A model generated the notes under the pieces. The model was not told where the DNA came from. It saw only the letters and a list, made by a program, of their open reading frames with translations, and ran no database searches. Below, in pieces: positions 11,352-56,990 of a stretch of 64,000 nt of DNA (its first letter is position 1; each line of letters starts with the position of its first letter). The DNA is taken from NCBI GenBank assembly GCA_026395955.1, contig JAPLXR010000006.1, positions 87,259 to 151,258 on the forward strand, in the 5' to 3' direction. The position numbers and the translations under genes are program-made. The DNA is from Candidatus Nomurabacteria bacterium. GTDB taxonomy: Bacteria > Patescibacteriota > Minisyncoccia > Phycocordibacterales > UBA9973.

Positions 11352-11521
11352 CTAAACAAGCAGTAATTAAGTTCCAATTAGCTCATCATATAGATCCTAT
11401 TGGTGTTGTTGGTCCTAGGACTAGAGGGGAGATTAAATAGGTACTTTTATAAAATATAAATACTGCATAATTTGTGTTACACTATACTTAGTTTATTTAT
11501 TAATTTATAAAAGTTTTTATT

Positions 11522-14500
11522 ATGAAAAAAATATTTAGTATTGTTTTAGTTTTAATAGTTGTATTTGGGAATATTCCATTTACAAATTTTGGTACACAAA
11601 AAGTTTTAGCAGATGGATTTCAAGGTACAGGAGATGGTAGTGAGGGGAATCCATTTATAATTACAAATTGTACTTTACTCCAAGAAATAAACTTAGATTT
11701 GGATTTGTATTTTAAATTACAAGGTGCAAATAATACTATAGATTGTTCTGAAACATCTAATTGGAATTCAGATGGTGATGGAGGGTATTATGGATTTCAA
11801 CCACTTGGTTCTGTTAACTCTCCATTTTTTACAGGACATTTAAATGGAAATAATAACACTATTACTAATTTGTATATCAATAGACCTTCATCAACTTTTG
11901 TTGGGCTATTTTCTGTAGTTGATTCTGGTGCTACTATTAGTGATTTAACTTTAAAGGATGTAAATATAACTGGAAACGATCGTACTGGTGCTCTTGTGGG
12001 TTCTCTGAGTGGTACTGTTACAAATGTCCATGCTTCAGGTGTGCTTACAGGAGGTTTTACTACTGGAGGTCTTGTCGGTGCTCATGTGAATAATAATAGT
12101 TGGTATAACTCTAGTCCTTTAGTTTATACTTGGGATGGAAATAAATATAAATATATAGCCGATGTTGGTAATTTATTACCAAAAGAAGTTTTAAATGCTC
12201 CAGATTTGGCTACTGTAGACACTGGCGATTTAGTTCCAAAAGATGGAAAATATTCAATGAAAATTGCAGAAGAATATAATGAAATTGTTTACTATGATAA
12301 ACTCACTTTGAATACTTATGATCATGCACCAGGATATAGTATTGCAGTTCCATTAAACAGAAATGCTGTAGCTAGTGATATAAAAACAGTCAGTGATACA
12401 CCGACAAATCCATTACTTTCTTGTACAGATATGTATGGAAATAATTGTGAAGATACACTCAAGGCAAACGATGACAAATGGGCAGTGCAAGATAAAAGTT
12501 TTGTAAATTCATATATTATGGATTTTGGAGATTTATCAAACAAAGACAGTATACAACTGGTAATGCGTGGTGCTCGTGATTATGATGCTGCTGCAAAGAT
12601 GAGAGCTGCTGGAAATTATCAATCTCTACGCACTGTTCAAGTCAAAGACACAAATGGTAACTGGGTAGAAATTTATAATAAAAATGACTTAGGTTCTGAC
12701 GGTACACCTAGACTTCGAACTATCGACCTTACTGGAAAATTCTTGAGTAATGATTATCATATTAAGGTTGGTTTCGATACAATGTACATGAATTATTTTG
12801 CTGTTGATACATCTGCACAAGTCCCTGTCACAGTGCATACTTATGCTCCAACAAAAGCTGATCTTAGTTTTAGAGGTTTTACTAAGATAAATCATAATCC
12901 GTATGTTGATCATGATTACAATACTGTAACAGTAAATCCTGAAGGAATGTTTAAACCTCAATTTGGTAATTTCACAAAATACGGTGATGTATCTCCATTA
13001 CTTCAAACTTCAAACAATCAATTCGTAATTATGAAAGGAGGTGATCATATGGATATAGAATTCCCATATGTCGCACCCGCCGATGGAATGGTGAGAAGTT
13101 TTGTTTTAGATAATGATGCTTGGTATAAACATGCTTCAAATGAAGGTATTGATTTGCTTGGTAAGACAGTTAGTCCACTTCCATATCAAGGTATGACTTC
13201 ATATACAGCGAATACAAGTGGTTATCCGATGACTGATGAAAATACTAATTATTTAAATACTTGGAATACTCGTGTCTATGCAGGTACACCAAAACATGAT
13301 GTTACAAATGGTAGTACAATTATTAATTCTTCTTCTAGTGTTAATGTTACTACTAATAATAATAGTTACGTAGGAGGACTTGTTGGTTATAATGAAAAAG
13401 AAATTAGAAATTCTTTTGCTACAGGAGATGTAACTGCCAATGGTAATTCTTACAATATTGGAGGATTAGTAGGATTTAATGGAACTGCTGGATCTACTGG
13501 ATGGATACATGATTCTTATGCGACAGGTTCTGTAACAAATATAAATGGTTACGATGTAGGAGGTTTAGTTGGTATTAACCTTGCAAAAATTGAAAGAAGT
13601 TATGCTGCTGGGCTTGTTACATCAAATAATGTTGATTATGCTCATGGACTAATAGGTGATAACTGTGGTGGTGGTTGTAGCACAGAAGTGAATGATTCAT
13701 TTTGGGACACACAAACATCTCAAAAAGAAACTGACGCATCAGGTTCTAATGCTACAGGAAAAAGTTCATCTGAAATGAAAGACATTGCAACATTTACAAA
13801 TGCTAGTACTACAGGACTTACTAATGCTTGGGATTTTACTGGTACATTAAATAATGATGCAGGTACAGATGATATTTGGAAAATAGATGCAAATCAGAAC
13901 AATGGTTATCCATATTTGTATTGGCAAACACCAGCTCCAGTTTTGACTGAAGTGAAACCAATTCCAGCAAAAGTCACAGCAAGTAAGGCAAAATATTATT
14001 TTACAACAGATAAGGCTTGTACTTTACAAGTAAGTGCAGTCGAAACAGACAAGGAAGGTGAAGTTACAGTTCATGTTTCAGGAGAACCTACTCCTGGTGA
14101 GGATTCTAATTTTTATCTAACTGGTTTAAAGACAGGTGGAACATATTCGTTTAATTTTCAATGTATAGATGAAAATGATAGTATTTCAAATACTTTAAAT
14201 GTAGGACCATTTAAAGTTATTTCTAATATTACTTCTTCTGGATATTATTCTCCAGGTAGTGTTCCATCCTTTATTCAATCATCAACCACTCCTGTACAAT
14301 CAACATCACAAGTAAGTACAAATCCAGAGCAAAAAAATATAACAATCTCTGAAATCCAAAAAGTTGTGAAAGATTTAAAATTTGGAATGAAAGACGCTGA
14401 TGTAAAAATACTTCAATCATTCTTAATCTCACAAGACAAAGGAGAAAATGCAAAAGCATTAGCAAAACACGGAACAACTATAAACTTTGGGAAATTAACA

Positions 14501-14602
14501 CAAAAATCTTTAGCAGAATGGCAAAAAGCTAATAATGTTTCTCCTGCAGTTGGTATCTTTGGTCCTATAACTCGTGCAAAGATAAAAGATTTAAATTTAT
14601 AA
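11522..14602 (+). CDS. giant secreted surface protein with GLUG-motif repeats and an intact C-terminal peptidoglycan-binding (PG_binding_1-like) domain
   Basis: Signal peptide; repeated GGLVG segments (YVGGLVGYN, IGGLVGFNG, VGGLVGINL) typical of GLUG repeats. C-terminus reads DVKILQSFLI...FGKLTQKSLAEWQKANNVSPAVGIFGPITRAKI. Shares the SSGGY-PG-PSFIQS linker with the upstream paralog. Confidence 0.7.
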   Translation: MKKIFSIVLVLIVVFGNIPFTNFGTQKVLADGFQGTGDGSEGNPFIITNCTLLQEINLDLDLYFKLQGANNTIDCSETSNWNSDGDGGYYGFQPLGSVNSPFFTGHLNGNNNTITNLYINRPSSTFVGLFSVVDSGATISDLTLKDVNITGNDRTGALVGSLSGTVTNVHASGVLTGGFTTGGLVGAHVNNNSWYNSSPLVYTWDGNKYKYIADVGNLLPKEVLNAPDLATVDTGDLVPKDGKYSMKIAEEYNEIVYYDKLTLNTYDHAPGYSIAVPLNRNAVASDIKTVSDTPTNPLLSCTDMYGNNCEDTLKANDDKWAVQDKSFVNSYIMDFGDLSNKDSIQLVMRGARDYDAAAKMRAAGNYQSLRTVQVKDTNGNWVEIYNKNDLGSDGTPRLRTIDLTGKFLSNDYHIKVGFDTMYMNYFAVDTSAQVPVTVHTYAPTKADLSFRGFTKINHNPYVDHDYNTVTVNPEGMFKPQFGNFTKYGDVSPLLQTSNNQFVIMKGGDHMDIEFPYVAPADGMVRSFVLDNDAWYKHASNEGIDLLGKTVSPLPYQGMTSYTANTSGYPMTDENTNYLNTWNTRVYAGTPKHDVTNGSTIINSSSSVNVTTNNNSYVGGLVGYNEKEIRNSFATGDVTANGNSYNIGGLVGFNGTAGSTGWIHDSYATGSVTNINGYDVGGLVGINLAKIERSYAAGLVTSNNVDYAHGLIGDNCGGGCSTEVNDSFWDTQTSQKETDASGSNATGKSSSEMKDIATFTNASTTGLTNAWDFTGTLNNDAGTDDIWKIDANQNNGYPYLYWQTPAPVLTEVKPIPAKVTASKAKYYFTTDKACTLQVSAVETDKEGEVTVHVSGEPTPGEDSNFYLTGLKTGGTYSFNFQCIDENDSISNTLNVGPFKVISNITSSGYYSPGSVPSFIQSSTTPVQSTSQVSTNPEQKNITISEIQKVVKDLKFGMKDADVKILQSFLISQDKGENAKALAKHGTTINFGKLTQKSLAEWQKANNVSPAVGIFGPITRAKIKDLNL

Positions 14603-22612: not shown

Positions 22613-23227
22613 TTAATTTAATTGCTTATAATAACCTGGTAAAAAAGATATTTTTGTAATTGGTAATAATCTTATTAAAGCTCTTCCGACTAGTAACTTT
22701 TTTGGAACTGGTCCCCAATATCTAGAATCTGAACTTCCTGATCTATTGTCTCCCATTACGAAATATTCGTCATTTGTTAAGACTCGATGGGCGCTATCTT
22801 CGGAATGATTTTTAACGTAAGACTGATCGAGTGCAAATCCTTCTGGATGTTCTTTGTTTGTGATTATTGTTTGTTCCGCTTTTACATCTACTGTTTCACC
22901 TGGAAGTCCGATAATTCTTTTTATAAAAAACTTTGATGTGTCTCCTGGATATCTAAAAACTACAACATCACCACGTTGTGGACTTTTAAAATTATATGTA
23001 AGTTCATCTACTATTAAATATTGTCCATTTTGAAATGTTGGAACCATCGATGTTCCAGACACTACGAATGGTTGAGCGACAAATATACGAATAGGAATAA
23101 CTATGACTATTGCTATAAAAGCAAAGCGTACTAATTCCCAAAAGTTTTCTTTGAAGGTTTGTTTTTTTTCTTGAGCTATGGTTTCTTGTGTTTTTTGACC
23201 CTTTAAATCTTCATTTTGTGTTTCCAT
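22613..23227 (-). CDS. lepB: signal peptidase I
   Basis: N-terminal TM helix, SGTSMVPTF (Ser box), GDNRSGSSDSRYWG (box E). Confidence 0.85.
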   Translation of the reverse strand: METQNEDLKGQKTQETIAQEKKQTFKENFWELVRFAFIAIVIVIPIRIFVAQPFVVSGTSMVPTFQNGQYLIVDELTYNFKSPQRGDVVVFRYPGDTSKFFIKRIIGLPGETVDVKAEQTIITNKEHPEGFALDQSYVKNHSEDSAHRVLTNDEYFVMGDNRSGSSDSRYWGPVPKKLLVGRALIRLLPITKISFLPGYYKQLN

Positions 23228-31193: not shown

Positions 31194-32486
31194 ATGAAAG
31201 GAAATAATTTTCAACTTATAATTCTCGTCGTGTTTATAGTAGCAGGGTTATTTGGTATTTTAGTTTTTGCTGGACTCATTCCAATAGGTCAGCCAGTTAA
31301 AACAGGACCTGTTGGTGTCGTTACTCTTTGGGGTACAGAAAAAACATCTTCTATTGGTAAGGCAATAACTATTTTTAATAATGCAAATTCAAATGTTTCT
31401 TTAAAATACGTACAAAAAAATCCAGCAACTTTTGATCAAGATTTACTCGAAGCATTAGCTACTGGAAGTGGTCCAGATTTATTTATTTTGTCAGATGATT
31501 TAATCATTCATTATAAAAATAAAATCTCAATTTTTCCGTACCCTTCATATCCTTTAGCTAATTTTAAAAATACTTTTTCTAGTGCTGGAGAAGTATATCT
31601 GACTCCAGATGGTGTTTTAGCTTTACCGATATCAGTGGATCCTTTAATAATGTATTACAATAGAGCTGTCTTGGATGCTAATAATATTGCTACTCCTCCA
31701 TCTTATTGGGATGATTTACAAAATATTGTTCCAAGTCTTACTAAAAAAGATTCATCAGGCAAATTAATAAGTAGTGCTGTTGCGTTGGGTCAATTTAGTA
31801 ATATTAATAATGCTAAAGACATTATCGCTACTCTTTTTATGCAGGCCGGTAGTTCTATCGCTGAAAATAAGGGCGGAGTTTTTTATTCAACCTTAGATAA
31901 GGTTGATAATAAAATAGACCCAGGATCGATTTTAAGTTTTTATACGCAGTTTACTGATCCATTAAATCAATTTTATTCATGGAATAGATCTTTACAAAAT
32001 TCTAGAGACGCTTTTTCTTCTCAAGCTCTAGATTTCTATTTCGGTTATGCTAGTGAATTACCTTATTTGACTAGTAAAAATCCAAATCTAAATTTTTATG
32101 TTGCTCCTATTCCACAAATAAAAAATTCTAATTTCAAAGTTACTTTTGGTAGAACTCAAGGTATAGCAGTATCATCAGCTTCAAAAAATAAAAATTCAGC
32201 TTTTATGGTTGCTTCACTTTTAGCTTCTGGTGATTTTGCTCAACAATTTTCTGATGCACTCTTAGTTGCTCCTGCGAGGCGTGATTTATTAGCAAAAAAA
32301 CCTACAGATGCTTATAATCCTATATTCTATAGTTCTGCTTTGTATTCAAAGAGTTGGCCAGATCCATCTTCAGAAAAAACAGATGCTATTTTTAGTGGAA
32401 TGATAGACAATGCTTTATCAAATAATTTAACTCCAAAAGGAGCTGTTTTAGATGCTTCATCTAAATTAGACTTTATTTTAAAATAA
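31194..32486 (+). CDS. membrane-anchored extracellular solute-binding-protein-like protein
   Basis: N-terminal TM anchor followed by an SBP family-1-like pattern (TLWGTEK...GSGPDLFI...). Sits directly upstream of the pilin-like cluster. Confidence 0.4.
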   Translation: MKGNNFQLIILVVFIVAGLFGILVFAGLIPIGQPVKTGPVGVVTLWGTEKTSSIGKAITIFNNANSNVSLKYVQKNPATFDQDLLEALATGSGPDLFILSDDLIIHYKNKISIFPYPSYPLANFKNTFSSAGEVYLTPDGVLALPISVDPLIMYYNRAVLDANNIATPPSYWDDLQNIVPSLTKKDSSGKLISSAVALGQFSNINNAKDIIATLFMQAGSSIAENKGGVFYSTLDKVDNKIDPGSILSFYTQFTDPLNQFYSWNRSLQNSRDAFSSQALDFYFGYASELPYLTSKNPNLNFYVAPIPQIKNSNFKVTFGRTQGIAVSSASKNKNSAFMVASLLASGDFAQQFSDALLVAPARRDLLAKKPTDAYNPIFYSSALYSKSWPDPSSEKTDAIFSGMIDNALSNNLTPKGAVLDASSKLDFILK

Positions 32487-32492
32487 AAATTT

Positions 32493-34088
32493 ATGAAAAT
32501 ATTTAAACAAAACTTTTTAATGAAAATAGCTCTAGTAGTATTTTTGTTTTTGATATCTTTTGGATTTTCAAAAAATGTTTTTGCTGCTACATTAGTAGCT
32601 ACTAATATAACACCAACCTCTGTTGCTGTTGGCGGTGGAGGATTTACTCCTGGTGTTTCTTATCAGATTACTATATCTGATACATTAGGTATAGTTAATC
32701 ATACATTCGTTACTGCTTGTTCAACTCTTTCTACTTCCTGTACTACCTTGGGTACTTTTGGGGTTAGTTTTACTAACTTGACTCAACATCATAATTATGA
32801 TTTAATGGCAACTCTTCAGTCAAATGGAACTCCCGTTGGAAGTCTTATTAGTTTTACTACAGCGACAGCTCCAACAACTGTAACCCTAACAGCAACACCT
32901 TCGACTCTTGCATCAGGACAATCAACAACATTATCTTGGACAGCGACAAATGTTACCGGTAGTTGTATCGCTGCTAGTAATCCAAATATTATAGCTGTGT
33001 GGGATAATCCACATAAAGCACTTTCCGGGACACAATTAGTTTCAGTTGTAGCTTCTAATAATTTTTCTCTTTCTTGTACTGATGCGTCAGGTAATTTTGC
33101 AGGACAAGCAAATGCTTTTGTTACTGTAACAGGAGCAGGTTCTGGTGCTACTGCTGCTCCTATTGGTACACCTCCACCTGGTACTTTTCCATCAACTACG
33201 CCTGTAACACTTTCTAGCTCTACTAGTGGTGCAACAATTAGATATGTTATAGATGCTTCTACTCCTACATGTACCTTAGGTTCTACTACGAATCCTATGA
33301 GTGTTAGTACTACAACAACAATAAAAGCTATTGCTTGCGATCCCCATGGAGTTGCTTCTACTATTTCTTCTTTAACTTATACAATTAATTCCTCTAGTGG
33401 GGGAACACCACCACCTCCTACTGGTGGTCCTACTACAAATGGATCTATGGTAGCTAATGATCCTACTTCAACTATGGTTACATTAGATGCGACAGGTCTT
33501 TCTAATACAGGAAGCTATCTTTTTGCTGTTTACAATAATACTGGAACACCATCATATTATCAAACGAGAATTCCTGCAACAACAGATGGAACTGACGGAG
33601 AATCACCCTTCCCAGGTTTATCTCCTAGTGGTTCATATACTGCTTATTTAATAGATCAAAATACCTCTAATAATGCTGTTCCTTCTATTACATTTTCAAC
33701 TTTAGCTACAGACCCCCTTATAATAGGTGCTGGATCCGGTAGTGGTGTAGCTTCTACTACACCTGCGTCAAATCTATCAAACCCAGCTGGTGGTTTAGTT
33801 CCAGCATGTACTAATGCAAGAGGTTGTCAGTGGGCAGATTTAATGTCTTTGGTAAATAAAGTTGTTAAATTTATTCTTTTTGATCTAGGAATTCCTATAG
33901 CAGCTATTATGTTTATGTATGCTGGTTTTTTGCTTGTTACATCTGGTGGAAATCCTGGAGATCTTACAAAAGCAAAAGGTATATTTACTTCTGTTCTGAT
34001 AGGTCTTGTTATTTCAGCTGCCGCTTGGCTTATTATAAATATAATACTGACTACTTTAGGTTTTGTTGGTGATAGACTTGGGTTTTAA
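32493..34088 (+). CDS. large Thr/Ser/Pro-rich secreted surface protein with a C-terminal two-helix pilin-like module (CTNARGC...IGIPIAAIMFMYAGFLLV...AKGIFTSVLIGLVISAAAWLIINIIL)
   Basis: Signal peptide, long low-complexity T/S/P/G region, and the last ~90 aa paralogous to the five downstream small proteins, closest to 34112-34480. Confidence 0.55.
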   Translation: MKIFKQNFLMKIALVVFLFLISFGFSKNVFAATLVATNITPTSVAVGGGGFTPGVSYQITISDTLGIVNHTFVTACSTLSTSCTTLGTFGVSFTNLTQHHNYDLMATLQSNGTPVGSLISFTTATAPTTVTLTATPSTLASGQSTTLSWTATNVTGSCIAASNPNIIAVWDNPHKALSGTQLVSVVASNNFSLSCTDASGNFAGQANAFVTVTGAGSGATAAPIGTPPPGTFPSTTPVTLSSSTSGATIRYVIDASTPTCTLGSTTNPMSVSTTTTIKAIACDPHGVASTISSLTYTINSSSGGTPPPPTGGPTTNGSMVANDPTSTMVTLDATGLSNTGSYLFAVYNNTGTPSYYQTRIPATTDGTDGESPFPGLSPSGSYTAYLIDQNTSNNAVPSITFSTLATDPLIIGAGSGSGVASTTPASNLSNPAGGLVPACTNARGCQWADLMSLVNKVVKFILFDLGIPIAAIMFMYAGFLLVTSGGNPGDLTKAKGIFTSVLIGLVISAAAWLIINIILTTLGFVGDRLGF

Positions 34089-34111
34089 TTGACCTGTGAT
34101 ATAATTACTTT

Positions 34112-34480
34112 ATGAAAATAAATAATCTTTTTCAAAGAAATATATATAAGATATCTTTAGCTACTTATGTTTTGTTGTATCCAACTATTTCTTTTGCTGT
34201 TACTTATACTTGTAATCCTGGTGAAATTTGTAACCCTATCAGTGCTAGTACTCTAAATGAATTTATAAAAGCAATATTAGAAGGTGCTATAAAGATAGGT
34301 ATACCTATAATTGCCTTGGCAATTATTTATAGTGGTTTTCTTTTCGTAAAAGCACAAGGTAATGAAAAAGAACTTGAAACAGCTAAAAAGGCGATATTAT
34401 ATACATTGATCGGTGCAGCATTATTATTGGGTGCTTGGGCTTTAGCACAGCTTGTATCAGAGACAGTTTTAGCTTTATAA
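34112..34480 (+). CDS. VirB2/TrbC-like putative pilin (signal peptide, CxxxxxC loop, two hydrophobic helices separated by a K/E-rich loop), paralog 1
   Basis: CNPGEIC...IKIGIPIIALAIIYSGFLFVKAQGNEKELETAKKAILYTLIGAALLLGAWALAQLV. Confidence 0.5.
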   Translation: MKINNLFQRNIYKISLATYVLLYPTISFAVTYTCNPGEICNPISASTLNEFIKAILEGAIKIGIPIIALAIIYSGFLFVKAQGNEKELETAKKAILYTLIGAALLLGAWALAQLVSETVLAL

Positions 34481-34484
34481 TAAA

Positions 34485-34814
34485 ATGAACAAAAATTTAA
34501 AAAATTTATTTGCAGCTTGTGTACTTACACCACCTAATACTTTTAAAAGTTTTGTAGAATTTATTTCTTGTAATATAAATAAATCTATAATTCCTTTTAT
34601 TATGGCTTTATCTTTTGCTGTATTTTTTTGGGGAATTGTTCAGTACTTATTGGGAGCAAACGAAGAAACAAAAAGAACTAAAGGGCGAGAGTTCATGATT
34701 TGGGGTATTGTTGGTTTGGCTGTTATGATATCTATCTGGGGTTTTGTGGCTGTTTTAGGAAACACTTTCGGTGTTCAGAATGTTATTCCTCAAGTTCAAA
34801 ATACTTCAATATAA
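34485..34814 (+). CDS. VirB2/TrbC-like putative pilin, paralog 2
   Basis: C...C pair, then IIPFIMALSFAVFFWGIVQYLLGANEETKRTKGREFMIWGIVGLAVMISIWGFVAVL. Confidence 0.45.
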   Translation: MNKNLKNLFAACVLTPPNTFKSFVEFISCNINKSIIPFIMALSFAVFFWGIVQYLLGANEETKRTKGREFMIWGIVGLAVMISIWGFVAVLGNTFGVQNVIPQVQNTSI

Positions 34815-34815
34815 T

Positions 34816-35148
34816 ATGAAAAATTTTAATTATAAAAATTTACTTGCTGTATGTCCGTTAGCTTCAAGTCCAAAAATAGGTGATATTTTTGACTTTAGTA
34901 CCTGTTTGATTTCTAGAGGCATTTTCCCTATATTGTTTGCTTCAGCTCTCGCTGTATTTACTTGGGGTGCTGTTCAATATGCATTAAATGCTCAAGACGA
35001 AAAGAAAAGAGAAGAAGGTAGAAAGTTTATAGTTTGGGGATTAATAGCTTTTACGGTCATGATTTCTGTTTTAGGGTTAATAACCATAATAACCAATAGT
35101 TTTAGTATAGGGCACGCTAATCCCACTATTCAGTCTGTTACCCAGTAG
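34816..35148 (+). CDS. VirB2/TrbC-like putative pilin, paralog 3 (start at MKNFNYK; the track ORF's upstream extension overlaps the previous gene)
   Basis: CPLAS...STC pair, then FPILFASALAVFTWGAVQYALNAQDEKKREEGRKFIVWGLIAFTVMISVLGLITII. Confidence 0.5.
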   Translation: MKNFNYKNLLAVCPLASSPKIGDIFDFSTCLISRGIFPILFASALAVFTWGAVQYALNAQDEKKREEGRKFIVWGLIAFTVMISVLGLITIITNSFSIGHANPTIQSVTQ

Positions 35149-35263
35149 CATTTGTTTTTCTATTTATGGTATAATTAAAGTAACCTAATCATTTAGGATA
35201 TTATTATTAAGAAGGTCGTTTTGTTTATTAATTATTATTAACTCGATTAATCGAGAAAAAAAT

Positions 35264-35665
35264 ATGAAGAAAAAATTAATTAGTTCAGCTAGTTTGGTCG
35301 CATTGTCAGCATTAGTTCCTTTTATTGCTTCTGCTGCTCAAAATTGTCTTGTACCTACAGGTGGCACAGATATCCCTTACATGATTTGTAGGGTAAGTAA
35401 TATTATCAACTCACTCGTGCCTCTATTTATCGCATTAGGAGTTGTTTACTTTATTTGGGGTGTTATTTCTTATGCTATTTCAAAAGAAGAAGAAGCAAAG
35501 AAAGAAGGAAAGGCAAGAATCATTTATGGTCTTATCGCCCTCCTAGTTATCGTTTCTATCTGGGGACTTGTTTCTATTCTACAAAGTTCATTCGGAATAA
35601 GTTCTGCTGGTAATACTGACACAGTATTCGTTCCTTGTATTAACTCAGATGGTACAGTTTGTTAA
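35264..35665 (+). CDS. VirB2/TrbC-like putative pilin, paralog 4
   Basis: Clear signal peptide (ASAAQNC), C...C pair, LVPLFIALGVVYFIWGVISYAISKEEEAKKEGKARIIYGLIALLVIVSIWGLVSIL; extra C-terminal Cys pair. Confidence 0.5.
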   Translation: MKKKLISSASLVALSALVPFIASAAQNCLVPTGGTDIPYMICRVSNIINSLVPLFIALGVVYFIWGVISYAISKEEEAKKEGKARIIYGLIALLVIVSIWGLVSILQSSFGISSAGNTDTVFVPCINSDGTVC

Positions 35666-35684
35666 TTTTAGTTAATACTTTATT

Positions 35685-36038
35685 ATGTCTTTAATTAATG
35701 TAGCTTATGCTGGTGAAAGTTTAGATCAATTCATAAAGAATGTTGATAAACTTATCATTAATCCATTAATAATATTACTTTTTGGCCTAGCTACAGCTTA
35801 TTTCTTTTGGGGAGTATTTAAACTTATTTCAAATACCGACAATGAAAAAGCTCGTAGTGATGGTAAAAAACATATGTTATTTGGGATTGTTGGTATCACC
35901 ATTATGTTGGCGGTGTGGACTATTTTAGGAATTATTACTAATACCTTAAATATAAGTAGTGGTGAAATAAATCCACAACAGGGTACAGTACATCTAAATG
36001 ATTATACTCCTTCTACACCATCCGGATTTCTGCATTAA
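35685..36038 (+). CDS. VirB2/TrbC-like putative pilin, paralog 5 (no Cys pair)
   Basis: LIILLFGLATAYFFWGVFKLISNTDNEKARSDGKKHMLFGIVGITIMLAVWTILGII. Confidence 0.45.
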   Translation: MSLINVAYAGESLDQFIKNVDKLIINPLIILLFGLATAYFFWGVFKLISNTDNEKARSDGKKHMLFGIVGITIMLAVWTILGIITNTLNISSGEINPQQGTVHLNDYTPSTPSGFLH

Positions 36039-36063: not shown

Positions 36064-36106
36064 TAAAAAAACTCCTTCGCATTTTGCGAGGGAGTTTTTG
36101 TTTTTT
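36064..36106. terminator. bidirectional rho-independent terminator closing the pilin-like array (+) and the 131-aa gene (-)
   Basis: actccttcgc-atttt-gcgagggagt flanked by an A-run and T-runs. Confidence 0.75.
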
Positions 36107-36135: not shown

Positions 36136-36531
36136 CTAGTCGATTGTATCGACTTTGTGTCCACCTCTAGATACGAATGTATATGTATCTGTAGGTTGAT
36201 AACCAGCATGTACTACTTTATTTGGTCCATCGTGAGATATGCAAACTCCACTTGAGTTGTATATATCATAATCTCCATCGATAGGGTAAGCAGTCCAACC
36301 TTCTTTTAAGAAGATCTGTGTTCCAGAAGATGTTATTGTCCAACTTCTTCTTTGTTTGCCGATATTTACTACTGTCTGTTGTGCAACGTTACTCGATGTT
36401 TGAGTATTGTTGTTTTGTGTACTGTTTGATTGTTGATTGGAAGTACTCTCAGAACCTGAGAAGTACAACCAACCAAATAGAGCTACTGCTATTACTATAA
36501 CAATAGTACCAATTACCTGTTTTGCATCCAT
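36136..36531 (-). CDS. small membrane-anchored extracellular protein (131 aa)
   Basis: N-terminal TM anchor, S/T/N/Q-rich linker, small globular C-terminal domain. Confidence 0.4.
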   Translation of the reverse strand: MDAKQVIGTIVIVIAVALFGWLYFSGSESTSNQQSNSTQNNNTQTSSNVAQQTVVNIGKQRRSWTITSSGTQIFLKEGWTAYPIDGDYDIYNSSGVCISHDGPNKVVHAGYQPTDTYTFVSRGGHKVDTID

Positions 36532-36557
36532 TTAAATAAGTTTTTAAGTTTATATTT

Positions 36558-37517
36558 TTACTTTTTTCCAGCTCCTGCACCAAAACTACCTCCTGTGCCA
36601 ATAAATGTATGCATTCCTTCTGGTGCACCTGTAAATTTAAAATTAGAAGTCTGTTCATTTTCAGTGTACTCCTGATTTGGATCTTGAAGTTTTGCAACTT
36701 TAGTCGCTTCTTCAATGGACATACCAGTTTTTTTCATGATTATTTTAACTGCTTCTGCAAAGGCTTCTGCTCTTGTTTTTGGTAACTTAATTTTCTTTGA
36801 TTCTGAACTCAAGCTACTGTCTTTAAGAGTAAACTTTATTCCAACTCCATTTGCTTCTTGGAATTCGTTTAAAATTTTTAAACCAGTACTATTTGGTCCA
36901 AAGAAAACTCCTTTAATAACAGCTTCTTCGTCTACCAAATGTGATGATGGATGTTTACTGTAATATGTAGAAAATACACCTTCTATCATATCAGAAAATA
37001 ATTCAACCATTTTTTCTTGGCTTTCAAATTTTTTAGATTTGATTACATTTTCAGTTACTTCATCTGCTGTGCCTTCTGTATCTATCCACATTGTTCCTGA
37101 AAATTGTGCATTCATTTCAATATTACTATCATTAGTTGTTAGTGGAATGTTTGCACTTAAAGGCATTACAGTTTTTAAGCTGTCAAAAATTTTTTGACTC
37201 TTTGAAGTTTCTACTGTTTCGATACCGAGAAAATGAAATCCAGCGAAAAGTACGCGTCTTCTTTTTGTGAATGTATTGAATGTAACTGTGTACTTCCAGT
37301 CTTTAACAGTTTCTGCAAGTACTCCAGTAAATATCAATACTCCATAAGCAACCCCAGTTATTCCAAACAAAACAAGCTTAACTTTTAACAGGATAATAAG
37401 TAAAACCCAGATGATAACATGTAATGCTATTACGCTTAATGGGGTAATTGTTTTTGGGACATCAGTTGTCCTTTTTTTGTTAGAGACAGTAGTCCCCAAA
37501 ATTTCTAATTGTGCCAT
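36558..37517 (-). CDS. hypothetical membrane protein (319 aa, 2-3 TM N-terminal, soluble C-terminal domain)
   Basis: ORF with a hydrophobic N-terminus. Confidence 0.4.
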   Translation of the reverse strand: MAQLEILGTTVSNKKRTTDVPKTITPLSVIALHVIIWVLLIILLKVKLVLFGITGVAYGVLIFTGVLAETVKDWKYTVTFNTFTKRRRVLFAGFHFLGIETVETSKSQKIFDSLKTVMPLSANIPLTTNDSNIEMNAQFSGTMWIDTEGTADEVTENVIKSKKFESQEKMVELFSDMIEGVFSTYYSKHPSSHLVDEEAVIKGVFFGPNSTGLKILNEFQEANGVGIKFTLKDSSLSSESKKIKLPKTRAEAFAEAVKIIMKKTGMSIEEATKVAKLQDPNQEYTENEQTSNFKFTGAPEGMHTFIGTGGSFGAGAGKK

Positions 37518-37619
37518 TTTTTTTATGAATTAAATTGTTTTTAATTATTTTTTAAAATACATTTCTATACTTATAGTATATCATATGCAACATAAAAAGT
37601 CAAGCCATTTAAACCAAAA

Positions 37620-37670
37620 CCCCCTCTCCTTAATAAGGAGAGGGGGCAAGGGGGTGAGGTGGTTTTTTTA
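37620..37670. repeat. GC-rich hairpin repeat copy E (CCCCCTCTCC-ttaataa-GGAGAGGGGG-CAA-GGGGGTGAGG) followed by a T-run; doubles as a terminator for the minus-strand gene ending at 37668
   Basis: Perfect 10-bp stem; same arm and flank sequence as copy B; A/T runs on both sides. Confidence 0.7.
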
Positions 37671-38411
37671 AGCTTTCTTTAATGCTACAGGTTCTTTTTT
37701 TGTATCACCCATATATAGCTTTCTAGCTAAGAATATTGCTATTAATACTAAGATGATAAGCAATAACCATTGTATGAATGTTGTAGGCATAAATCCTGAA
37801 CCGAAAGCATTTGCTGTGAGACCGTTACAATCTGTGCTATTTATGGCAGAAGCTGTTAAAGCCTTTTTAGCAGTTGTTGTTTTTGCTGGAGTAGCCTTTG
37901 CTGGTGTATTTGTAGTTGCTGGTGGATAATCTCCGACAGTACTAGGGGCTACGGTTGTAGTTGTTTTTGTGATGTTTAAATAAACTCCATTTGAGACATG
38001 TCCAGTGTCTTGATTATATACAGTTACTACATGACTTCCAGATGTGGCTACGTCAGAAGGGTATAGAGCCATACTTAAGTGAGTAGTATTTATATACTTT
38101 GTAGGTCTATTTGATCCGTCTAAACGAGCGACTGATCCTGGATTGAAGTTTGCACCTGTAATATTTATAACTTCATTTGCATTAGTTGAATCTGAAACAC
38201 TGTTCGGTGTTATTGAATAAATAATTGGTGTAGCCACATTATAATAATTATTTGTATTATTGTTGTTATCAACACTTGTAGGATTACCTAGGTAGTAACC
38301 AGGGCCTCCAGCATTAACTTTAGCTGGTGCAAAAGAAAACACTATTAGAGCTAAAACACTCAATAATATCACTGTGTTATATTTAATTGTTTTATTTAAT
38401 ATGTTAGTCAT
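37668..38411 (-). CDS. secreted Thr-rich protein with a C-terminal TM anchor (247 aa)
   Basis: Signal peptide, T/P-rich linker, C-terminal hydrophobic helix plus K-rich tail. Confidence 0.45.
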   Translation of the reverse strand: MTNILNKTIKYNTVILLSVLALIVFSFAPAKVNAGGPGYYLGNPTSVDNNNNTNNYYNVATPIIYSITPNSVSDSTNANEVINITGANFNPGSVARLDGSNRPTKYINTTHLSMALYPSDVATSGSHVVTVYNQDTGHVSNGVYLNITKTTTTVAPSTVGDYPPATTNTPAKATPAKTTTAKKALTASAINSTDCNGLTANAFGSGFMPTTFIQWLLLIILVLIAIFLARKLYMGDTKKEPVALKKA

Positions 38412-46170: not shown

Positions 46171-48582
46171 TTAATTTATACTAAAATTAAGATCTGAAAA
46201 GTCAGAAACTGACGGTGCGTTAGCATCAAACATAGTAATCTTATATTCATTTATTCCAGCAGAAAGACCAGCTAAGCTGGTAGTAAAACTACCCGTATTT
46301 GTTGTAACGAAATAAATAGAGTTACCACTCATTACATTCTCTATAAAGATCCCTATTGGTGCAGAAACAGGAATCAGTGAAGATGTCCAAGATATAGTGA
46401 TTGTTTGACCTACACTAAAATATTCTCCTCCATTTGGAAAATCAACATGTATAGCAGCACCCGCTGGTATTTGATAAACAAGACCACCATTACTGTACGA
46501 ATTAGTATTACCGAGGCTAGATTGATCTTCAACAACAAAATTCACTCCAAAAATGCCACCAATAATATAGTTACCATACTGCAAAGACGCTCCAGCGCTA
46601 ATAGTAGTAGAAAAATTTTGTGATTGACCTGGAGCAAGCGTAAATTGTTGGGTTGTATTTATGGTTATGGTTACTGCATTTGATCCTGCTGAAAGCCGAT
46701 TCAGTGTTATGGTCGAAGGAAGAGTAAAGGTTGATGTAGAGCATATTGAGCTATCTGTGTTAGTAATAGTCGCATTTACTACTAACGGACCGTTGCTTAA
46801 ATCAATAGAGGAAACAGGAAAACTTGGAATATTTAATGTCGGGTGTCCTGAACTACAAACAGCAAGGCTTGGATTAGGTGCACTAATAGAAACAACAGCG
46901 TGAATAGAATCTGTAGATATCGTGGTAATAGTGCGTCCTGTTGCTCGGTCAATATATGAGTGCCCTACAGTAAGTGGCGCATCATTTAAAGTATTTGTAT
47001 TTGGCATAGTGTCAATAAGATTATTATCATAACGTAAAGAAACACCATTCATCACTGGATCAGTTGAAGAGTATGTATCCCGAACACCGTAAGGTCTCCT
47101 GTACTCGAGTGTAAAATATGCACTATTACCTGTATTATCTTGTGTCGGGAAACGAAGTGCTTTTTGAAAAATTGCCTGAGGGTACAGGGGAAATTGTCCC
47201 CACTGAGTAGGACCAAGAGTAGTTATATCGGTCGGCAATATATTTCCAATTACACCTAATTTTAATTTTTCAAACACACTAAAAAGTAGTTTTGGATCCC
47301 ATCCATTACCCATGACTGAAAAAGGATCTCCATATTCTATGTGAGTACAATGCCCACCGTCAAAAAACGAATACGCTTCAGGCGCACCAGAAGCATCAAC
47401 ACAATTTTGTGAATTTGCATGCATTAGATCAAGTGAATGTCCCATTTCATGAATAATTGCTGAAGAACTAGTAGTGTATAAAACTGCACGAGGTCCGTAT
47501 GTACTTATTCCATAAAAACCACCAACAGGACAACTAACAGAAGGTGCAACGAGAACGACTACATCGTACCCATTCGGATCAAATCCATTTTGCATGGCCA
47601 TAGCTTCTGCTTCATTAGCCCAATTATTTTGAGATGTAGGATACGTACAACCAGCGCTGCCATGAGGCAAAGTATAATATCCATATACATCATTAGTACC
47701 ATCAACACTATTTTTGCCAACTAATTTTATCACTCCATAGGAAGCTGTCCTATAAAAACCAGCGATACTATTTATATTATTCGGTTCGTTGTCATACATA
47801 TATTCTCGTGCAGTACTTATCGGGTAAGCTGCAACAGCAGTACTTGCATTATCTTGGAAATTAAAAAGTATTGTGGCAATTTTATATTCTCCTGCATTTG
47901 CTCCAGTGGTTTGAAGACTTTTTTGTTGATTTGATTTAGCAGATGAAGCAAATATTTTATTCACTGAAAGTATTTTACCTTTCAGTGTTCCGATAATAAC
48001 AACTTGCTTACGGTTTAATGGATTTTCGTCAGTAAGTTGTTCTTTGTCAGAAGAAGTTAAATTTAAACTAGTGCCGTCTGATAGTAACAATTGAGCTACT
48101 GGTATTTCTTTACTGAGAGTTCCATTTTTGCCAAAAATGTCACCATGCGAAAGATTTAAAATACCGCTATATTCTTTTTCAGAATTTTTTGTTGATACAA
48201 TAGCCGAGGTTTTAGAATCAACTTTTTGCATAACTGCTTTTGTAGTGACTTCCGCTGTTTTTGTATTTGTCTTAGTAGTTGCATCTTTCGTCGCGGCAGT
48301 TAACGATTTTACTGCACCACTTGAAGCAGTAGTGCTCTTTGTAAGCATAGTAGTAGCTTTTGTATCTGTTGTTAAGGAAAGACCTTTGGTACCAGTCTGA
48401 CTGAGTAACTTCATAATTGTATCTTTTTGTTCTTGAGTTAGAGGCGTAGAAGTAGTACTCGTTACGCTGTTTACTACAGTTGCAGTATTATCTGTCGGTG
48501 GGACATTGAAACCGAGCTTTGCAACAATGATAACCAAGACAACGGCTCCGATAAATAGCCCAAACTGTAAATATTTTTTCAT
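46171..48582 (-). CDS. large secreted metzincin-like zinc metallopeptidase (HEMGHSLDLMH plus an SVM Met-turn), T/S-rich N-terminal stalk, beta-rich C-terminal domains
   Basis: Signal peptide; HExxHxxDxxH with H at positions 1, 5 and 11; downstream FSVMG Met-turn. 803 aa. Confidence 0.6.
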   Translation of the reverse strand: MKKYLQFGLFIGAVVLVIIVAKLGFNVPPTDNTATVVNSVTSTTSTPLTQEQKDTIMKLLSQTGTKGLSLTTDTKATTMLTKSTTASSGAVKSLTAATKDATTKTNTKTAEVTTKAVMQKVDSKTSAIVSTKNSEKEYSGILNLSHGDIFGKNGTLSKEIPVAQLLLSDGTSLNLTSSDKEQLTDENPLNRKQVVIIGTLKGKILSVNKIFASSAKSNQQKSLQTTGANAGEYKIATILFNFQDNASTAVAAYPISTAREYMYDNEPNNINSIAGFYRTASYGVIKLVGKNSVDGTNDVYGYYTLPHGSAGCTYPTSQNNWANEAEAMAMQNGFDPNGYDVVVLVAPSVSCPVGGFYGISTYGPRAVLYTTSSSAIIHEMGHSLDLMHANSQNCVDASGAPEAYSFFDGGHCTHIEYGDPFSVMGNGWDPKLLFSVFEKLKLGVIGNILPTDITTLGPTQWGQFPLYPQAIFQKALRFPTQDNTGNSAYFTLEYRRPYGVRDTYSSTDPVMNGVSLRYDNNLIDTMPNTNTLNDAPLTVGHSYIDRATGRTITTISTDSIHAVVSISAPNPSLAVCSSGHPTLNIPSFPVSSIDLSNGPLVVNATITNTDSSICSTSTFTLPSTITLNRLSAGSNAVTITINTTQQFTLAPGQSQNFSTTISAGASLQYGNYIIGGIFGVNFVVEDQSSLGNTNSYSNGGLVYQIPAGAAIHVDFPNGGEYFSVGQTITISWTSSLIPVSAPIGIFIENVMSGNSIYFVTTNTGSFTTSLAGLSAGINEYKITMFDANAPSVSDFSDLNFSIN

Positions 48583-52085: not shown

Positions 52086-53416
<1,331 letters not shown>

Positions 53417-56986: not shown

Positions 56987-56990
56987 AGTT

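What the first reader, a model, noticed from the sequence alone, without database searches (positions are those of the whole stretch)
32493..34088. 531-aa Thr/Ser/Pro-rich surface protein fused to the same pilin-like two-helix module
The last ~90 residues (CTNARGC...LGIPIAAIMFMYAGFLLV...AKGIFTSVLIGLVISAAAWLIINIIL) are paralogous to the downstream small proteins and closest to 34112-34480. The first ~430 residues are a signal peptide plus a low-complexity T/S/P/G region typical of glycosylated stalks or adhesins. A pilin module carrying a large N-terminal extension could be a tip adhesin or a minor pilin built into the same filament.
Basis: seen in the sequence. Interest (0 to 1): 0.6.

Follow-up and report, generated by a model that had tools for sequence, protein, structure and literature searches.

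The report
Stalked VirB2-like pilin of Nomurabacteria
This gene from an ultrasmall Patescibacteria bacterium joins a conjugation-type (VirB2-like) pilin module to a roughly 400-residue stalk of four folded beta-sandwich domains, a natural "modular pilin" that could be the adhesin not yet found for the secretion system these bacteria are thought to use on their hosts.

Summary
ORF 32493-34088 (+) is one 531-aa gene, and the same fusion is found in related Nomurabacteria from independent assemblies. Its last ~90 residues are a Pfam PF18895 T4SS_pilin module scoring above the curated cut-off. The five downstream small genes (34112-36038) carry the same module, and 34112-34480 is the closest in-window paralog.

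The interpretation needs two corrections.
- The module is a VirB2/TrbC-like (type IV secretion) pilin, not a type IV pilus pilin.
- The N-terminal ~400 residues are not a low-complexity stalk. They form four beta-sandwich domains, one of them CHB_HEX_C_1/Fn3_assoc, joined by short Pro- or Gly/Ser-rich linkers.

The gene sits in the first slot of a conserved chromosomal pilin array (gyrA-MTase-SBP-pilins-...-rbfA-infB). In most of 46 related species that slot holds a 120-170-aa pilin. In about one in five it carries a different 150-850-aa ectodomain. Between two close relatives the membrane-distal domain has been replaced outright.

Best reading (inferred): a Sec-exported modular pilin that displays a variable adhesin stalk on the cell surface or on a T4SS pilus. 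No T4SS machinery lies in the window. Pilin arrays are published; I found no description of the stalked form. I rate it a new variant of a known kind.

The parts
32493..32585 (+). Sec-type signal peptide (aa 1-31; an alternative start at Met10 = nt 32520). The predicted signal peptidase I site is VFA|AT.
   Evidence: Hydrophobic segment at aa 3-36. AF2 predicts a helix at 2-26. P0001 starts at Met10. There is no class III prepilin motif. The cleavage site is inferred from the -3/-1 rule and was not computed by a dedicated predictor.
32586..32864 (+). Ectodomain D1 (aa 32-124): an FN3-like beta-sandwich, the membrane-distal and most variable domain. Cys76/Cys83.
   Evidence: AF2 gives strands at pLDDT 80-90. 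Foldseek finds FN3 strings. Identity to P0002 is 56% and to P0003 39%. The corresponding DNA is only 47-52% identical between L001 and L008, in a background of 88-100%.
32865..33137 (+). Ectodomain D2 (aa 125-215): an Ig-like domain with Cys158/Cys195. It is absent from the 444-aa homolog P0004.
   Evidence: AF2 predicts strands but at low confidence (pLDDT 42-65). Identity to P0002/P0003 is 79%, and most of the domain is gapped in P0004.
33138..33392 (+). Ectodomain D3 (aa 216-300): the CHB_HEX_C_1 / Fn3_assoc beta-sandwich. Cys260/Cys282.
   Evidence: Pfam PF13290 E 3.1e-12 (aa 227-292) and PF13287 E 3.9e-8. AF2 pLDDT is about 70-82. The exhaustive search returned thousands of CHB_HEX_C repeat proteins matching aa ~217-300.
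33393..33431 (+). Pro/Gly-rich inter-domain linker (aa 301-313, SSSGGTPPPPTGG).
   Evidence: AF2 pLDDT is below 50 at 300-315. A low-entropy window spans 295-320.
33432..33701 (+). Ectodomain D4 (aa 314-403): an FN3-like beta-sandwich, the membrane-proximal domain.
   Evidence: AF2 strands at 314-402 with pLDDT 54-80. BLASTP similarity to the fn3-containing ectodomain of L044 and to L024.
33702..33806 (+). Flexible Gly/Ser-rich tether (aa 404-438), ending in the conserved GGLVP motif.
   Evidence: AF2 pLDDT is below 50 at 404-432. The alignment with short pilins shows their mature N-terminus begins at GLVPC.
33807..34088 (+). VirB2-like T4SS pilin module (aa 439-531). It contains a Cys439/Cys445 loop, helix 1 (447-483), a basic loop TSGGNPGDLTKAK, helix 2 (488-521) and the tail LGFVGDRLGF, followed by the stop codon.
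   Evidence: PF18895 at 33.1/37.7 bits, above the 26.6 cut-off; TrbC/VirB2 is sub-threshold. AF2 predicts a helical hairpin at pLDDT 80-92. Hydrophobic segments at 454-485 and 494-527. Identity to short orthologs is 55-67%.
34112..36038 (+). Five downstream short pilin paralogs: 34112-34480, 34485-34814, 34771-35148 (the real start is probably later), 35264-35665 and 35685-36038. Together with the fused gene they form a 6-gene pilin array.
   Evidence: All five score above the PF18895 cut-off. Pairwise BLASTP was run. The same array is present in 46 species loci.
31194..32486 (+). SBP_bac_8-like protein with an N-terminal TM anchor, immediately upstream (6-nt gap). It is conserved next to the array in every related locus and may be an operon partner.
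   Evidence: Pfam PF13416 E 1.9e-14. Synteny holds in all 46 loci. No terminator-like hairpin lies in the 6-nt gap to the fused gene, and none lies between the pilin genes.
36067..36099 (+). Terminator-like hairpin (15-bp stem plus a T run) directly after the last pilin gene. It is the likely end of the pilin transcription unit.

Best explanation
The gene encodes a modular VirB2-like (type IV secretion system) pilin of a Ca. Nomurabacteria (Patescibacteria) genome.

Shown:
- The protein has an N-terminal Sec-type signal peptide.
- It then has four tandem beta-sandwich domains: FN3-like, Ig-like, CHB_HEX_C_1 and FN3-like. Three of them have one Cys pair each.
- A ~35-residue Gly/Ser tether follows.
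- It ends in a PF18895 pilin hairpin that keeps all the subfamily motifs of short pilins.
- It is the positional ortholog of the first, normally short, pilin of a vertically inherited 5-6-gene pilin array.

Inferred mechanism:
1. After Sec export and signal-peptide cleavage, the two hydrophobic helices sit in the membrane with both termini outside and the basic TKAK loop inside. This is the topology of VirB2/TraA propilins.
2. A T4SS encoded elsewhere in the genome extracts the module and polymerises it with the five short paralogs.
3. In solved conjugative pili the pilin N-terminus lies on the outside of the tube. The stalk would therefore radiate from the filament, or from a short channel-proximal structure.
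4. Its variable distal domain would be presented for binding to the host cell surface.

On this reading the protein is the adhesin of the system, and its ectodomain is a swappable cassette.
For: Architecture and family:
- Pfam, AF2 and Foldseek results define the domains and the pilin module.
- All 37 aligned relatives hit PF18895, and 21 of 37 also hit TrbC/VirB2 at E<=0.01, best 3.4e-6.

Orthology and insertion point:
- In L004, L006 and most of the 46 GTDB species loci, the slot right after the SBP gene holds a 119-167-aa pilin of the same subfamily at 55-65% identity.
- The ectodomain sits exactly between the signal peptide and the GLVPC start of the mature short pilin.

Recurrence:
- Nine of the 46 species loci, plus this window, have a long first-slot protein. 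The lengths seen are 271, 346, 410, 442, 529, 531 (this window), 594, 743 and 966 aa. The ectodomains differ: fn3, Pur_ac_phosph_N, DUF5018, CHB_HEX_C.
- They are scattered on a GyrA tree.
- About 12 of 80 metagenomic loci are also long.

Constraint and variation:
- The pilin module is 73% identical to P0002, against 49-56% for D1 and D4.
- Between L001 and L008 the D1-coding DNA is 47-52% identical in an 88-100% background, and D3 is 62-76% identical with an insertion.
- In L016 the same ectodomain (300 nt, 100% identical) is attached to two different pilin modules.

Topological plausibility:
- In the F/pED208 pilus the N- and C-termini are outside and the basic alpha2-alpha3 loop is in the lumen (PMC5018250).

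System context:
- Patescibacterial pilin arrays are known and are essential in S. epibionticum (PMC10633639; PMC12857230).
- No PrgB-like adhesin was found in 3,035 Patescibacteria genomes (PMC12102498).
- Nomurabacteria genomes carrying the same array are listed as VirB4-positive (Table S1 of PMC12102498).
Against: - No T4SS machinery gene (VirB4, VirB6, VirB3, VirD4) lies in the 64-kb window or within 10 kb of the array in the relatives. Whether this genome has one is inferred from relatives only.
- No pilus has been observed in any Patescibacterium. The reviews treat it as a possibility.
- The structural link of the hairpin to solved VirB2/TraA pilins is not discriminating. Foldseek found nothing at E<=0.001, and T-pilus VirB2 ranks 38th at E 5.8. 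A profile search of PDB sequences found only spurious GPCR helices.
- TrbC/VirB2 Pfam scores are below the curated cut-off.
- This lineage has no short copy of the first-slot subfamily. If that slot is the major pilin, every subunit would carry a ~400-aa passenger, which may be sterically hard to pack.
- No ligand can be predicted for any domain.
Confidence: 0.5

Rival explanations
1. The protein is a membrane-anchored surface protein only. The two-helix module serves as a hairpin membrane anchor and is never polymerised. The beta-sandwich stalk projects from the cytoplasmic membrane through the wall or S-layer as an ordinary cell-surface adhesin or spacer.
For: - No T4SS genes are nearby.
- No pilus has been demonstrated in Patescibacteria.
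- The hairpin fold is generic.
- Four Ig-like domains plus linkers resemble cell-wall-spanning stalks of monoderm surface proteins such as Sap S-layer, SiiE and GhpA.
- A ~400-aa passenger on every subunit may be hard to pack into a filament.
Against: - The module keeps the full set of subfamily-specific motifs of short pilins (PIAAIMFxYAGFLLVTSGG, TKAK, AAWLII, terminal LGx.G..GF) and is more conserved than most of the ectodomain.
- It replaces a short pilin at the same array position.
- A neighbouring surface protein uses a simple single C-terminal TM anchor (37668-38411), so a pilin hairpin is not needed merely for anchoring.
- In L016 the same ectodomain is placed on two different pilin paralogs.
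Confidence: 0.3
2. The protein is a precursor. It is cleaved in the Gly/Ser tether, near GGLVP|AC, releasing a soluble secreted beta-sandwich protein and a normal-sized mature pilin.
For: - The tether is long, disordered and ends exactly where mature short pilins begin.
- VirB2/TrbC pilins are known to undergo extensive N- and C-terminal processing (general knowledge of RP4 TrbC and Ti VirB2 maturation).
Against: - No protease gene or recognisable cleavage motif is associated with the locus.
- GLVPC is also conserved in short pilins, where it follows the signal peptide, so it looks like part of the mature pilin rather than a cleavage signal.
- The tether sequence is poorly conserved, at 31-54% identity.
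- Co-translating a secreted protein with a pilin would give 1:1 stoichiometry with no evident purpose.
Confidence: 0.12
3. The protein is a type IV pilus (T4P) minor pilin or tip adhesin, assembled by the PilB/PilC machinery.
For: Patescibacteria do have T4P, and modular type IV pilins are widespread, including in CPR (PMC8179133).
Against: - There is no G|F/MxxxE class III signal.
- The hydrophobic helices are C-terminal and paired, whereas type IV pilins have one N-terminal helix.
- The family assignment is PF18895/TrbC, not N_methyl or T2SS-T4P pilin.
Confidence: 0.01
4. The fusion is an artefact: two genes joined by a sequencing or assembly error.
For: None found.
Against: The same continuous ORF occurs in independent assemblies and species: P0001 from Logan, L001 from an NCBI MAG, L002 from Logan, L003/L008 from ENA/NCBI, and L032. 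Other long first-slot pilins with different ectodomains exist in further species.
Confidence: 0.01

Closest known systems
VirB2-like pilin arrays of Patescibacteria (S. epibionticum SEML1 T4SS locus; TM7x 'Sec-secreted array'; 441 arrays in Quinonero-Coronel et al. 2025)
   Same: Both are tandem arrays of 2-11 sequence-divergent PF18895/VirB2-like genes on the chromosome of a monoderm CPR bacterium. Here there are 6 genes with 20-41% pairwise identity.
   Different: Published arrays are described as small pilins, and the best-studied one lies within the T4SS cluster. Here the first member carries a ~400-aa four-domain ectodomain. The array lies between gyrA and infB with no T4SS gene within 30 kb.
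Conjugative pilins VirB2 / TrbC / TraA (Pfam PF04956; F, pED208 and T-pilus structures)
   Same: Both have a signal peptide followed by two long hydrophobic helices joined by a short basic loop. Predicted topology is N-out/C-out. There are weak but consistent profile matches to TrbC positions 33-98.
   Different: Scores are below the Pfam cut-off. The mature protein is ~500 aa rather than ~65-75 aa. The organism is a monoderm. Head-to-tail cyclisation, as in TrbC or T-pilin, is implausible with this passenger. No adjacent mating-pair-formation genes are present.
Modular type IV pilins (S. sanguinis PilB/PilC, ETEC CofB; Raynaud et al. 2021, PMC8179133)
   Same: The design principle is the same: a small pilin 'carrier' module fused through a linker to bulky adhesive modules. 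Both occur with many different architectures, and both are minority subunits alongside ordinary pilins.
   Different: The filament superfamily is unrelated (T4P versus T4SS). In T4P the pilin module is N-terminal and the passenger C-terminal. Here the order is reversed, which matches the exposed N-terminus of VirB2-type pilins.
Two-domain tip adhesins of chaperone-usher pili (FimH, PapG) - from general knowledge
   Same: Both have an N-terminal receptor-binding domain followed by a C-terminal pilin domain that plugs into the fibre.
   Different: The fold and assembly pathway are unrelated. This is an analogy only.
Multi-copy TrwL (VirB2) / TrwJ (VirB5) of the Bartonella Trw system and VirB2 paralogs of Anaplasma
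   Same: Both show amplification and diversification of T4SS pilus subunits, interpreted as adaptation to different host surfaces (cited in PMC12102498).
   Different: There the variation is in small pilin sequences. No large folded passenger domains are fused to VirB2.
Gram-positive T4SS adhesins (PrgB of pCF10)
   Same: The proposed role is the same: a surface adhesin that establishes contact for a monoderm T4SS.
   Different: PrgB is an LPXTG cell-wall-anchored protein unrelated to pilins. This protein has no LPXTG motif, and no PrgB homologs were found in Patescibacteria.
Mbov_0395 family pilin-like conjugal transfer proteins (NCBIfam NF045849; Mycoplasma ICEs, Firmicutes)
   Same: The five small paralogs hit this model. 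Four reach E 5e-8 to 4e-7 and the fifth (34485-34814) only E 0.0096; all are below the cut-off. The C-terminal module gives a weak tblastn hit (E 0.4) to such a protein 4 kb upstream of a VirB4-like ATPase in a Pontibacillus megaplasmid.
   Different: All scores are below the NCBIfam cut-off of 40 bits, and the 531-aa protein itself gave no NCBIfam hit. Those proteins are small and lie inside conjugation clusters.

Membership tests
Pfam PF18895 T4SS_pilin | Profile HMM score at or above the curated gathering threshold (26.6 bits) | tested here: met
   The full protein scores 33.1 bits (aa 456-518) and the C-terminal 107 aa alone 37.7 bits. All five downstream paralogs score 30.2-34.7 bits.
Pfam PF18895 T4SS_pilin | Two long hydrophobic helices joined by a short polar or basic loop, preceded by a secretion signal | tested here: met
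   AF2 helices at 447-483 and 488-521, pLDDT 80-92. Kyte-Doolittle segments at 454-485 and 494-527, plus a signal-like segment at 3-36. The loop sequence is TSGGNPGDLTKAK.
VirB2/TrbC conjugative pilins (Pfam PF04956) | Profile HMM score at or above the gathering threshold (27.9 bits) | tested here: not met
   Scores are 15.5 bits (full protein) and 20.5 bits (C-terminus). Of 37 relatives, 21 match at E<=0.01 (best 3.4e-6), always to model positions ~33-98. This indicates distant homology, not membership by the curated criterion.
VirB2/TrbC conjugative pilins (Pfam PF04956) | Fold match to solved pilins (F TraA, T-pilus VirB2) | tested here: inconclusive
VirB2/TrbC conjugative pilins (Pfam PF04956) | Genetic linkage to VirB4/VirB6 mating-pair-formation genes | tested here: not met
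   No T4SS component was found among the ORFs of 110 aa or more scanned across the 64-kb window or within +/-10 kb in relatives. Relatives with the same array are VirB4-positive somewhere in the genome (Table S1 of PMC12102498).
VirB2/TrbC conjugative pilins (Pfam PF04956) | Polymerises with phospholipid into an extracellular tube | not testable with these tools
   This needs EM or biochemistry. No pilus has yet been shown in any Patescibacterium.
Patescibacterial VirB2-like pilin array | Two or more tandem, sequence-divergent VirB2-like genes on the chromosome of a Patescibacterium | tested here: met
   Six consecutive PF18895 genes span 32493-36038, with pairwise identity of 20-41%. GyrA is 93% identical to a Ca. 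Nomurabacteria MAG. The array is conserved in 46 species loci.
Type IV pilus pilins (T4P, class III signal peptide) | N-terminal G|(F/M)xxxE prepilin peptidase motif followed by a single N-terminal hydrophobic helix | tested here: not met
   No such motif occurs in the first 60 residues. The N-terminus is a classical Sec signal, and the pilin-like helices are at the C-terminus.
LPXTG-anchored Gram-positive T4SS adhesins (PrgB-like) | C-terminal LPXTG sortase motif, TM segment and charged tail | tested here: not met
   No LPXTG-like motif occurs anywhere in the protein.
CHB_HEX_C_1 / Fn3_assoc domain proteins | Pfam PF13290 and PF13287 above the gathering thresholds | tested here: met
   PF13290 scores 46.7 bits (cut-off 22) at aa 227-292. 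PF13287 scores 33.7 bits (cut-off 23). This defines one domain only and carries no specific function.

The most novel reading that the evidence does not exclude
Patescibacterial VirB2-like pilins would be a natural display scaffold. Host-binding beta-sandwich cassettes are grafted onto the exposed N-terminus of one or more array members, exchanged by recombination between lineages, and presented on a T4SS-built filament. This would supply the adhesin not yet found for the CPR T4SS and help set host range. It would also be the first natural conjugative-type pilin known to carry a large folded passenger (a 'bottle-brush' or capped VirB2 pilus) in a monoderm.
Probability: 0.3. Interest if true: 0.75.

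Novelty: new variant of a known kind. Interest (0 to 1): 0.55.

Why it matters
The T4SS and its pilin array are essential for the epibiotic growth of the one genetically tractable Patescibacterium. What they do is unknown, and no adhesin for the system has been found. A pilin that carries a variable, recombining, multi-domain ectodomain gives a concrete and testable candidate for the host-contact component. The ectodomain can be expressed on its own for binding assays, for antibodies or nanobodies, and for in-situ labelling.

The finding also extends the 'modular pilin' principle from type IV pili to the unrelated VirB2 pilin family. It shows that current annotation misses the pilin module: NCBI names the ortholog 'chitobiase/beta-hexosaminidase C-terminal domain-containing protein'. 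Mechanistically it asks whether a VirB2-type tube can accommodate large passengers, which is also of interest for engineered display.

Tried and rejected
- The exhaustive phmmer search with the full protein was swamped by CHB_HEX_C_1 repeat proteins. Of 12,697 hits, only P0002 and P0004 share the architecture. It did not help to define the family.
- A profile search of PDB sequences with the pilin alignment found only spurious GPCR/opsin TM matches.
- The first attempt to scan genomes with the diverse alignment A3 failed for lack of conserved stretches. It was repeated with the closer alignment A4.
- The third word-index search with A3 listed only short pilins and tandem double pilins among the best 120 of 800 hits. 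It therefore gave no family-wide frequency of ectodomain fusions.
- tblastn against plasmids gave one weak hit at E 0.4.
- I looked for internal repeats between D1-D4 and for paralogous domains in other window proteins and found none.
- Rejected readings: type IV pilus pilin (no class III signal), LPXTG adhesin (no motif), frameshift fusion (conserved ORF in independent assemblies), and mobile-element or conjugative origin of the locus (core-gene synteny gyrA...rbfA-infB in 46 species).
- Literature searches for extended or fused VirB2-like pilins in CPR found nothing beyond the array papers.
Full report
**1. The observation**

ORF 32493-34088 (+) is a 531-aa ATG ORF. An identical protein starting at Met10 is on record from an independent Logan assembly (P0001). 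Full-length homologs exist in other assemblies:
- P0002, 525 aa, 62% identity, from a Ca. Nomurabacteria MAG (GCA_026395995.1);
- P0003, 590 aa;
- P0004, 444 aa;
- P0009, 479 aa, with a different N-terminal repeat region but the same C-terminal module.

Pfam places PF18895 (T4SS_pilin) at residues 456-518 with 33.1 bits against a cut-off of 26.6. The same family scores above its cut-off in all five downstream ORFs between 34112 and 36038. BLASTP of residues 431-531 gives 41% identity over 56 aa to the product of 34112-34480 (E 2e-9). The other four form a separate subgroup. The Thr/Ser/Gly/Pro bias is real.

**2. What the N-terminal 430 residues are**

They are not a low-complexity stalk.
- Pfam finds CHB_HEX_C_1 (E 3e-12) and Fn3_assoc at 227-296.
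- AlphaFold2, run on a 37-row alignment, predicts a signal helix (2-26) and four beta-sandwich domains. D1 is 33-122 (pLDDT 80-90), D2 is ~126-212 (low confidence), D3 is 224-298 and D4 is 314-402.
- It predicts two disordered linkers at 300-315 and 404-432, then a helical hairpin at 447-483/488-521 with pLDDT 80-88.
- Foldseek against PDB returns strings of FN3/Ig domains: fibronectin, LAR, the SiiE adhesin, the GhpA grappling hook and the Sap S-layer.
- The eight cysteines fall in pairs. There is one pair in each of D1, D2 and D3, plus one pair (439/445) just before helix 1. This pattern is what one expects of an exported protein.
- Low-entropy windows lie mostly at domain boundaries.

**3. 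What the C-terminal module is**

It is a type IV secretion (VirB2/TrbC-like) pilin module, not a type IV pilus pilin.
- There is no class III prepilin motif and no LPXTG.
- All 37 aligned relatives hit PF18895. Of these, 21 also hit TrbC/VirB2 at E<=0.01 (best 3.4e-6), always over model positions ~33-98. These scores stay below Pfam's cut-off.
- NCBIfam's 'Mbov_0395 family pilin-like conjugal transfer protein' matches the five small paralogs. Four reach about E 1e-7 and 34485-34814 only E 0.0096; all are below its cut-off.
- A weak tblastn hit (E 0.4) lands on such a protein 4 kb upstream of a VirB4-like ATPase in a Pontibacillus megaplasmid.
- Structure comparison of the isolated hairpin (pLDDT 80) is uninformative, because only generic helical hairpins match. 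A PDB sequence-profile search finds nothing relevant.

So membership of PF18895 is met. Membership of the classical VirB2/TrbC family is not met by the curated criteria, but distant homology is likely. The literature treats these proteins as VirB2-like (PMC10633639; PMC12102498; PMC12857230).

**4. Genomic and evolutionary context**

The window is chromosomal Ca. Nomurabacteria DNA. GyrA is 93% identical to MAG LacPavin_0818_WC45_MAG_33_35, and GC content is ~33%.

The gene order is gyrA - (DUF3750) - methyltransferase - SBP_bac_8-like - pilin array - variable surface-protein genes on the other strand - rbfA - infB. This order is conserved in all 46 species-level loci recovered from GTDB genomes. 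The genes are tightly spaced, with a 6-nt gap between the SBP gene and the fused gene. A strong terminator-like hairpin follows the last pilin gene at 36067-36099.

The closest relatives of the C-terminal module are not the in-window paralogs. They are short (104-184 aa) stand-alone pilins at 55-67% identity. In their alignment the signal peptide is followed directly by a conserved GLVPC...C motif, then PIAAIMFAYAGFLLVTSGG..TKAK..AAWLII..LGY.G.WIGF. Those short pilins occupy the same first slot after the SBP gene. The 531-aa protein is therefore the positional ortholog of the first pilin. About 400 residues have been inserted exactly between the signal peptide and the mature N-terminus.

**5. 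The fusion is recurrent and variable**

Nine of the 46 species loci, plus this window, have a long first-slot protein. The lengths seen are 271, 346, 410, 442, 529, 531 (this window), 594, 743 and 966 aa. Each has a Sec signal and a C-terminal PF18895 module, but the ectodomains differ: fn3, Pur_ac_phosph_N-type FN3, DUF5018-like or CHB_HEX_C. On a GyrA neighbour-joining tree the long forms lie partly in the window's clade, with short forms nested among them, and partly scattered elsewhere. This implies several gains, losses or swaps. An independent metagenome scan gives about 12 long forms among 80 loci.

Within the window's clade the domains are modular. P0004 lacks D2, and P0003 has an extra domain. 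Identity to P0002 is 73% for the pilin module and 79% for D2, but only 56% for D1 and 49% for D4.

Between two close relatives (L001 and L008, background 88-100% nucleotide identity) the pattern is sharper. The D1-coding segment is 47-52% identical. D3 is 62-76% identical with a ~195-nt insertion. D2, D4, the tether and the pilin module are 97-100% identical. That is cassette replacement of the membrane-distal domain. In L016 two adjacent pilin genes share a 300-nt, 100% identical 5' part (signal peptide plus ectodomain) attached to different pilin modules.

**6. Mechanism**

Shown:
- the architecture;
- the family assignment;
- the orthology to a short pilin;
- the conservation of the pilin motifs;
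- the variability of the ectodomain.

Inferred steps:
1. Sec export and cleavage after VFA31. A signal peptidase I gene lies at 22613-23227.
2. Membrane insertion of the hairpin with both ends outside and the basic loop (TKAK, 492-495) inside, by the positive-inside rule.
3. Extraction and polymerisation, together with the short paralogs, by a T4SS encoded elsewhere.
4. Outward display of the stalk.

Step 4 rests on the F/pED208 pilus, where the pilin N- and C-termini lie on the outside and the basic alpha2-alpha3 loop lines the lumen (PMC5018250). Four ~4-nm domains plus linkers would reach roughly 15-25 nm. That figure is my estimate, not a computed value.

The role would be adhesion to the host surface. 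PrgB-like adhesins were reported absent from 3,035 Patescibacteria genomes.

**7. What weakens this reading**

- No VirB4, VirB6, VirB3 or VirD4 gene is in the 64-kb window. All ORFs of 110 aa or more, apart from five antisense overlaps, were scanned, and the identifiable ones are housekeeping or surface proteins. None lies within 10 kb of the array in relatives either.
- Support for a T4SS in this lineage is indirect. Five Nomurabacteria genomes that carry the syntenic array are listed as VirB4-positive in Table S1 of PMC12102498.
- No Patescibacterial T4SS pilus has been seen.
- This lineage has no short copy of the first-slot subfamily. If that subunit is the major pilin, every subunit would carry a passenger.

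The main rival is that the hairpin is only a membrane anchor (0.3). A precursor-cleavage model cannot be excluded (0.12).

**8. Comparison with what is known, and novelty**

Pilin arrays in Patescibacteria are published, so the array itself is already known. The closest functional analogy to the fused gene is the 'modular pilin' of type IV pili, in which a carrier pilin module is fused to adhesive modules in many architectures (PMC8179133). That is an unrelated filament family, and the module order is reversed.

I found no description of VirB2-like pilins with large folded ectodomains in the searchable literature. NCBI names the ortholog only after its CHB_HEX_C domain. I therefore rate it a new variant of a known kind, of moderate interest. 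It offers a concrete, testable candidate for the host-contact element of an essential but functionally obscure system.

Noticed in passing
window 31194-32486 (+): An SBP_bac_8-like solute-binding protein with an N-terminal TM anchor lies immediately upstream of the pilin array (6-nt gap; overlapping stop/start in L004). It holds that position in all 46 related species loci. No ABC permease or ATPase is adjacent; the only ABC genes in the window are ftsEX-like, at 56300-57908. It may be a functional partner of the array.
   Followed up: partly
window 34485-34814 and 34771-35148 (+); L004 10812-11537; L006 10770-11792: In most relatives the third array position is one protein with two PF18895 pilin modules in tandem (~240 aa), or three in L006 (340 aa). 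In this window and its closest relatives it is split into two separate small genes. About 45 of the top 120 database hits are such double pilins.
   Followed up: partly
L016 9544-9843 and 10372-10671: Two adjacent pilin genes (271 aa and 244 aa) share a 300-nt, 100% identical 5' segment that encodes the signal peptide and a ~135-aa ectodomain, attached to different pilin modules. This is either recent duplication or gene conversion of an ectodomain cassette, or an assembly artefact.
   Followed up: partly
L001 10121-10300 and 10655-10879 vs L008: Between two close relatives the D1-coding segment of the fused pilin gene is 47-52% identical. The D3 segment is 62-76% identical and has a ~195-nt insertion. 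The rest of the locus is 88-100% identical. This is mosaic cassette replacement.
   Followed up: yes
window 52098-52841 and 52805-53416 (+): Adenylosuccinate synthetase (purA) is split into two overlapping ORFs that match Pfam model positions 1-208 and 221-412. This is a frameshift, either a sequencing error or a pseudogene.
   Followed up: no
window 46171-48582 (-): An 803-aa ORF has no Pfam match at E<=0.001.
   Followed up: no
window 36136-38411 (-): Three genes converge on the array. The 247-aa one (37668-38411) has a signal peptide, a domain annotated IPT/TIG in the L004 ortholog, a Thr/Pro-rich linker and a single C-terminal TM anchor. It is conserved at 29-48% identity in most related loci. 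The 131-aa and 319-aa genes are poorly conserved.
   Followed up: partly
window 9372-14602 (+): Two further large predicted surface proteins are present: 659 aa with a Big_5 Ig-like domain, and 1026 aa with a GLUG motif and an M26-peptidase N-terminal-like region. BLASTP shows they share no domain with the fused pilin's ectodomain.
   Followed up: partly
L133 (Pontibacillus sp. plasmid NZ_CP062975.1) 11806-18120: A Firmicute 'Mbov_0395 family pilin-like conjugal transfer protein' lies 4 kb upstream of a VirB4-like ATPase (CD1110 family) and a large peptidoglycan hydrolase. Pilin-like two-helix proteins of this family therefore do sit in monoderm T4SS clusters. This sits uneasily with the statement that Gram-positive T4SSs lack VirB2 homologs.
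   Followed up: no
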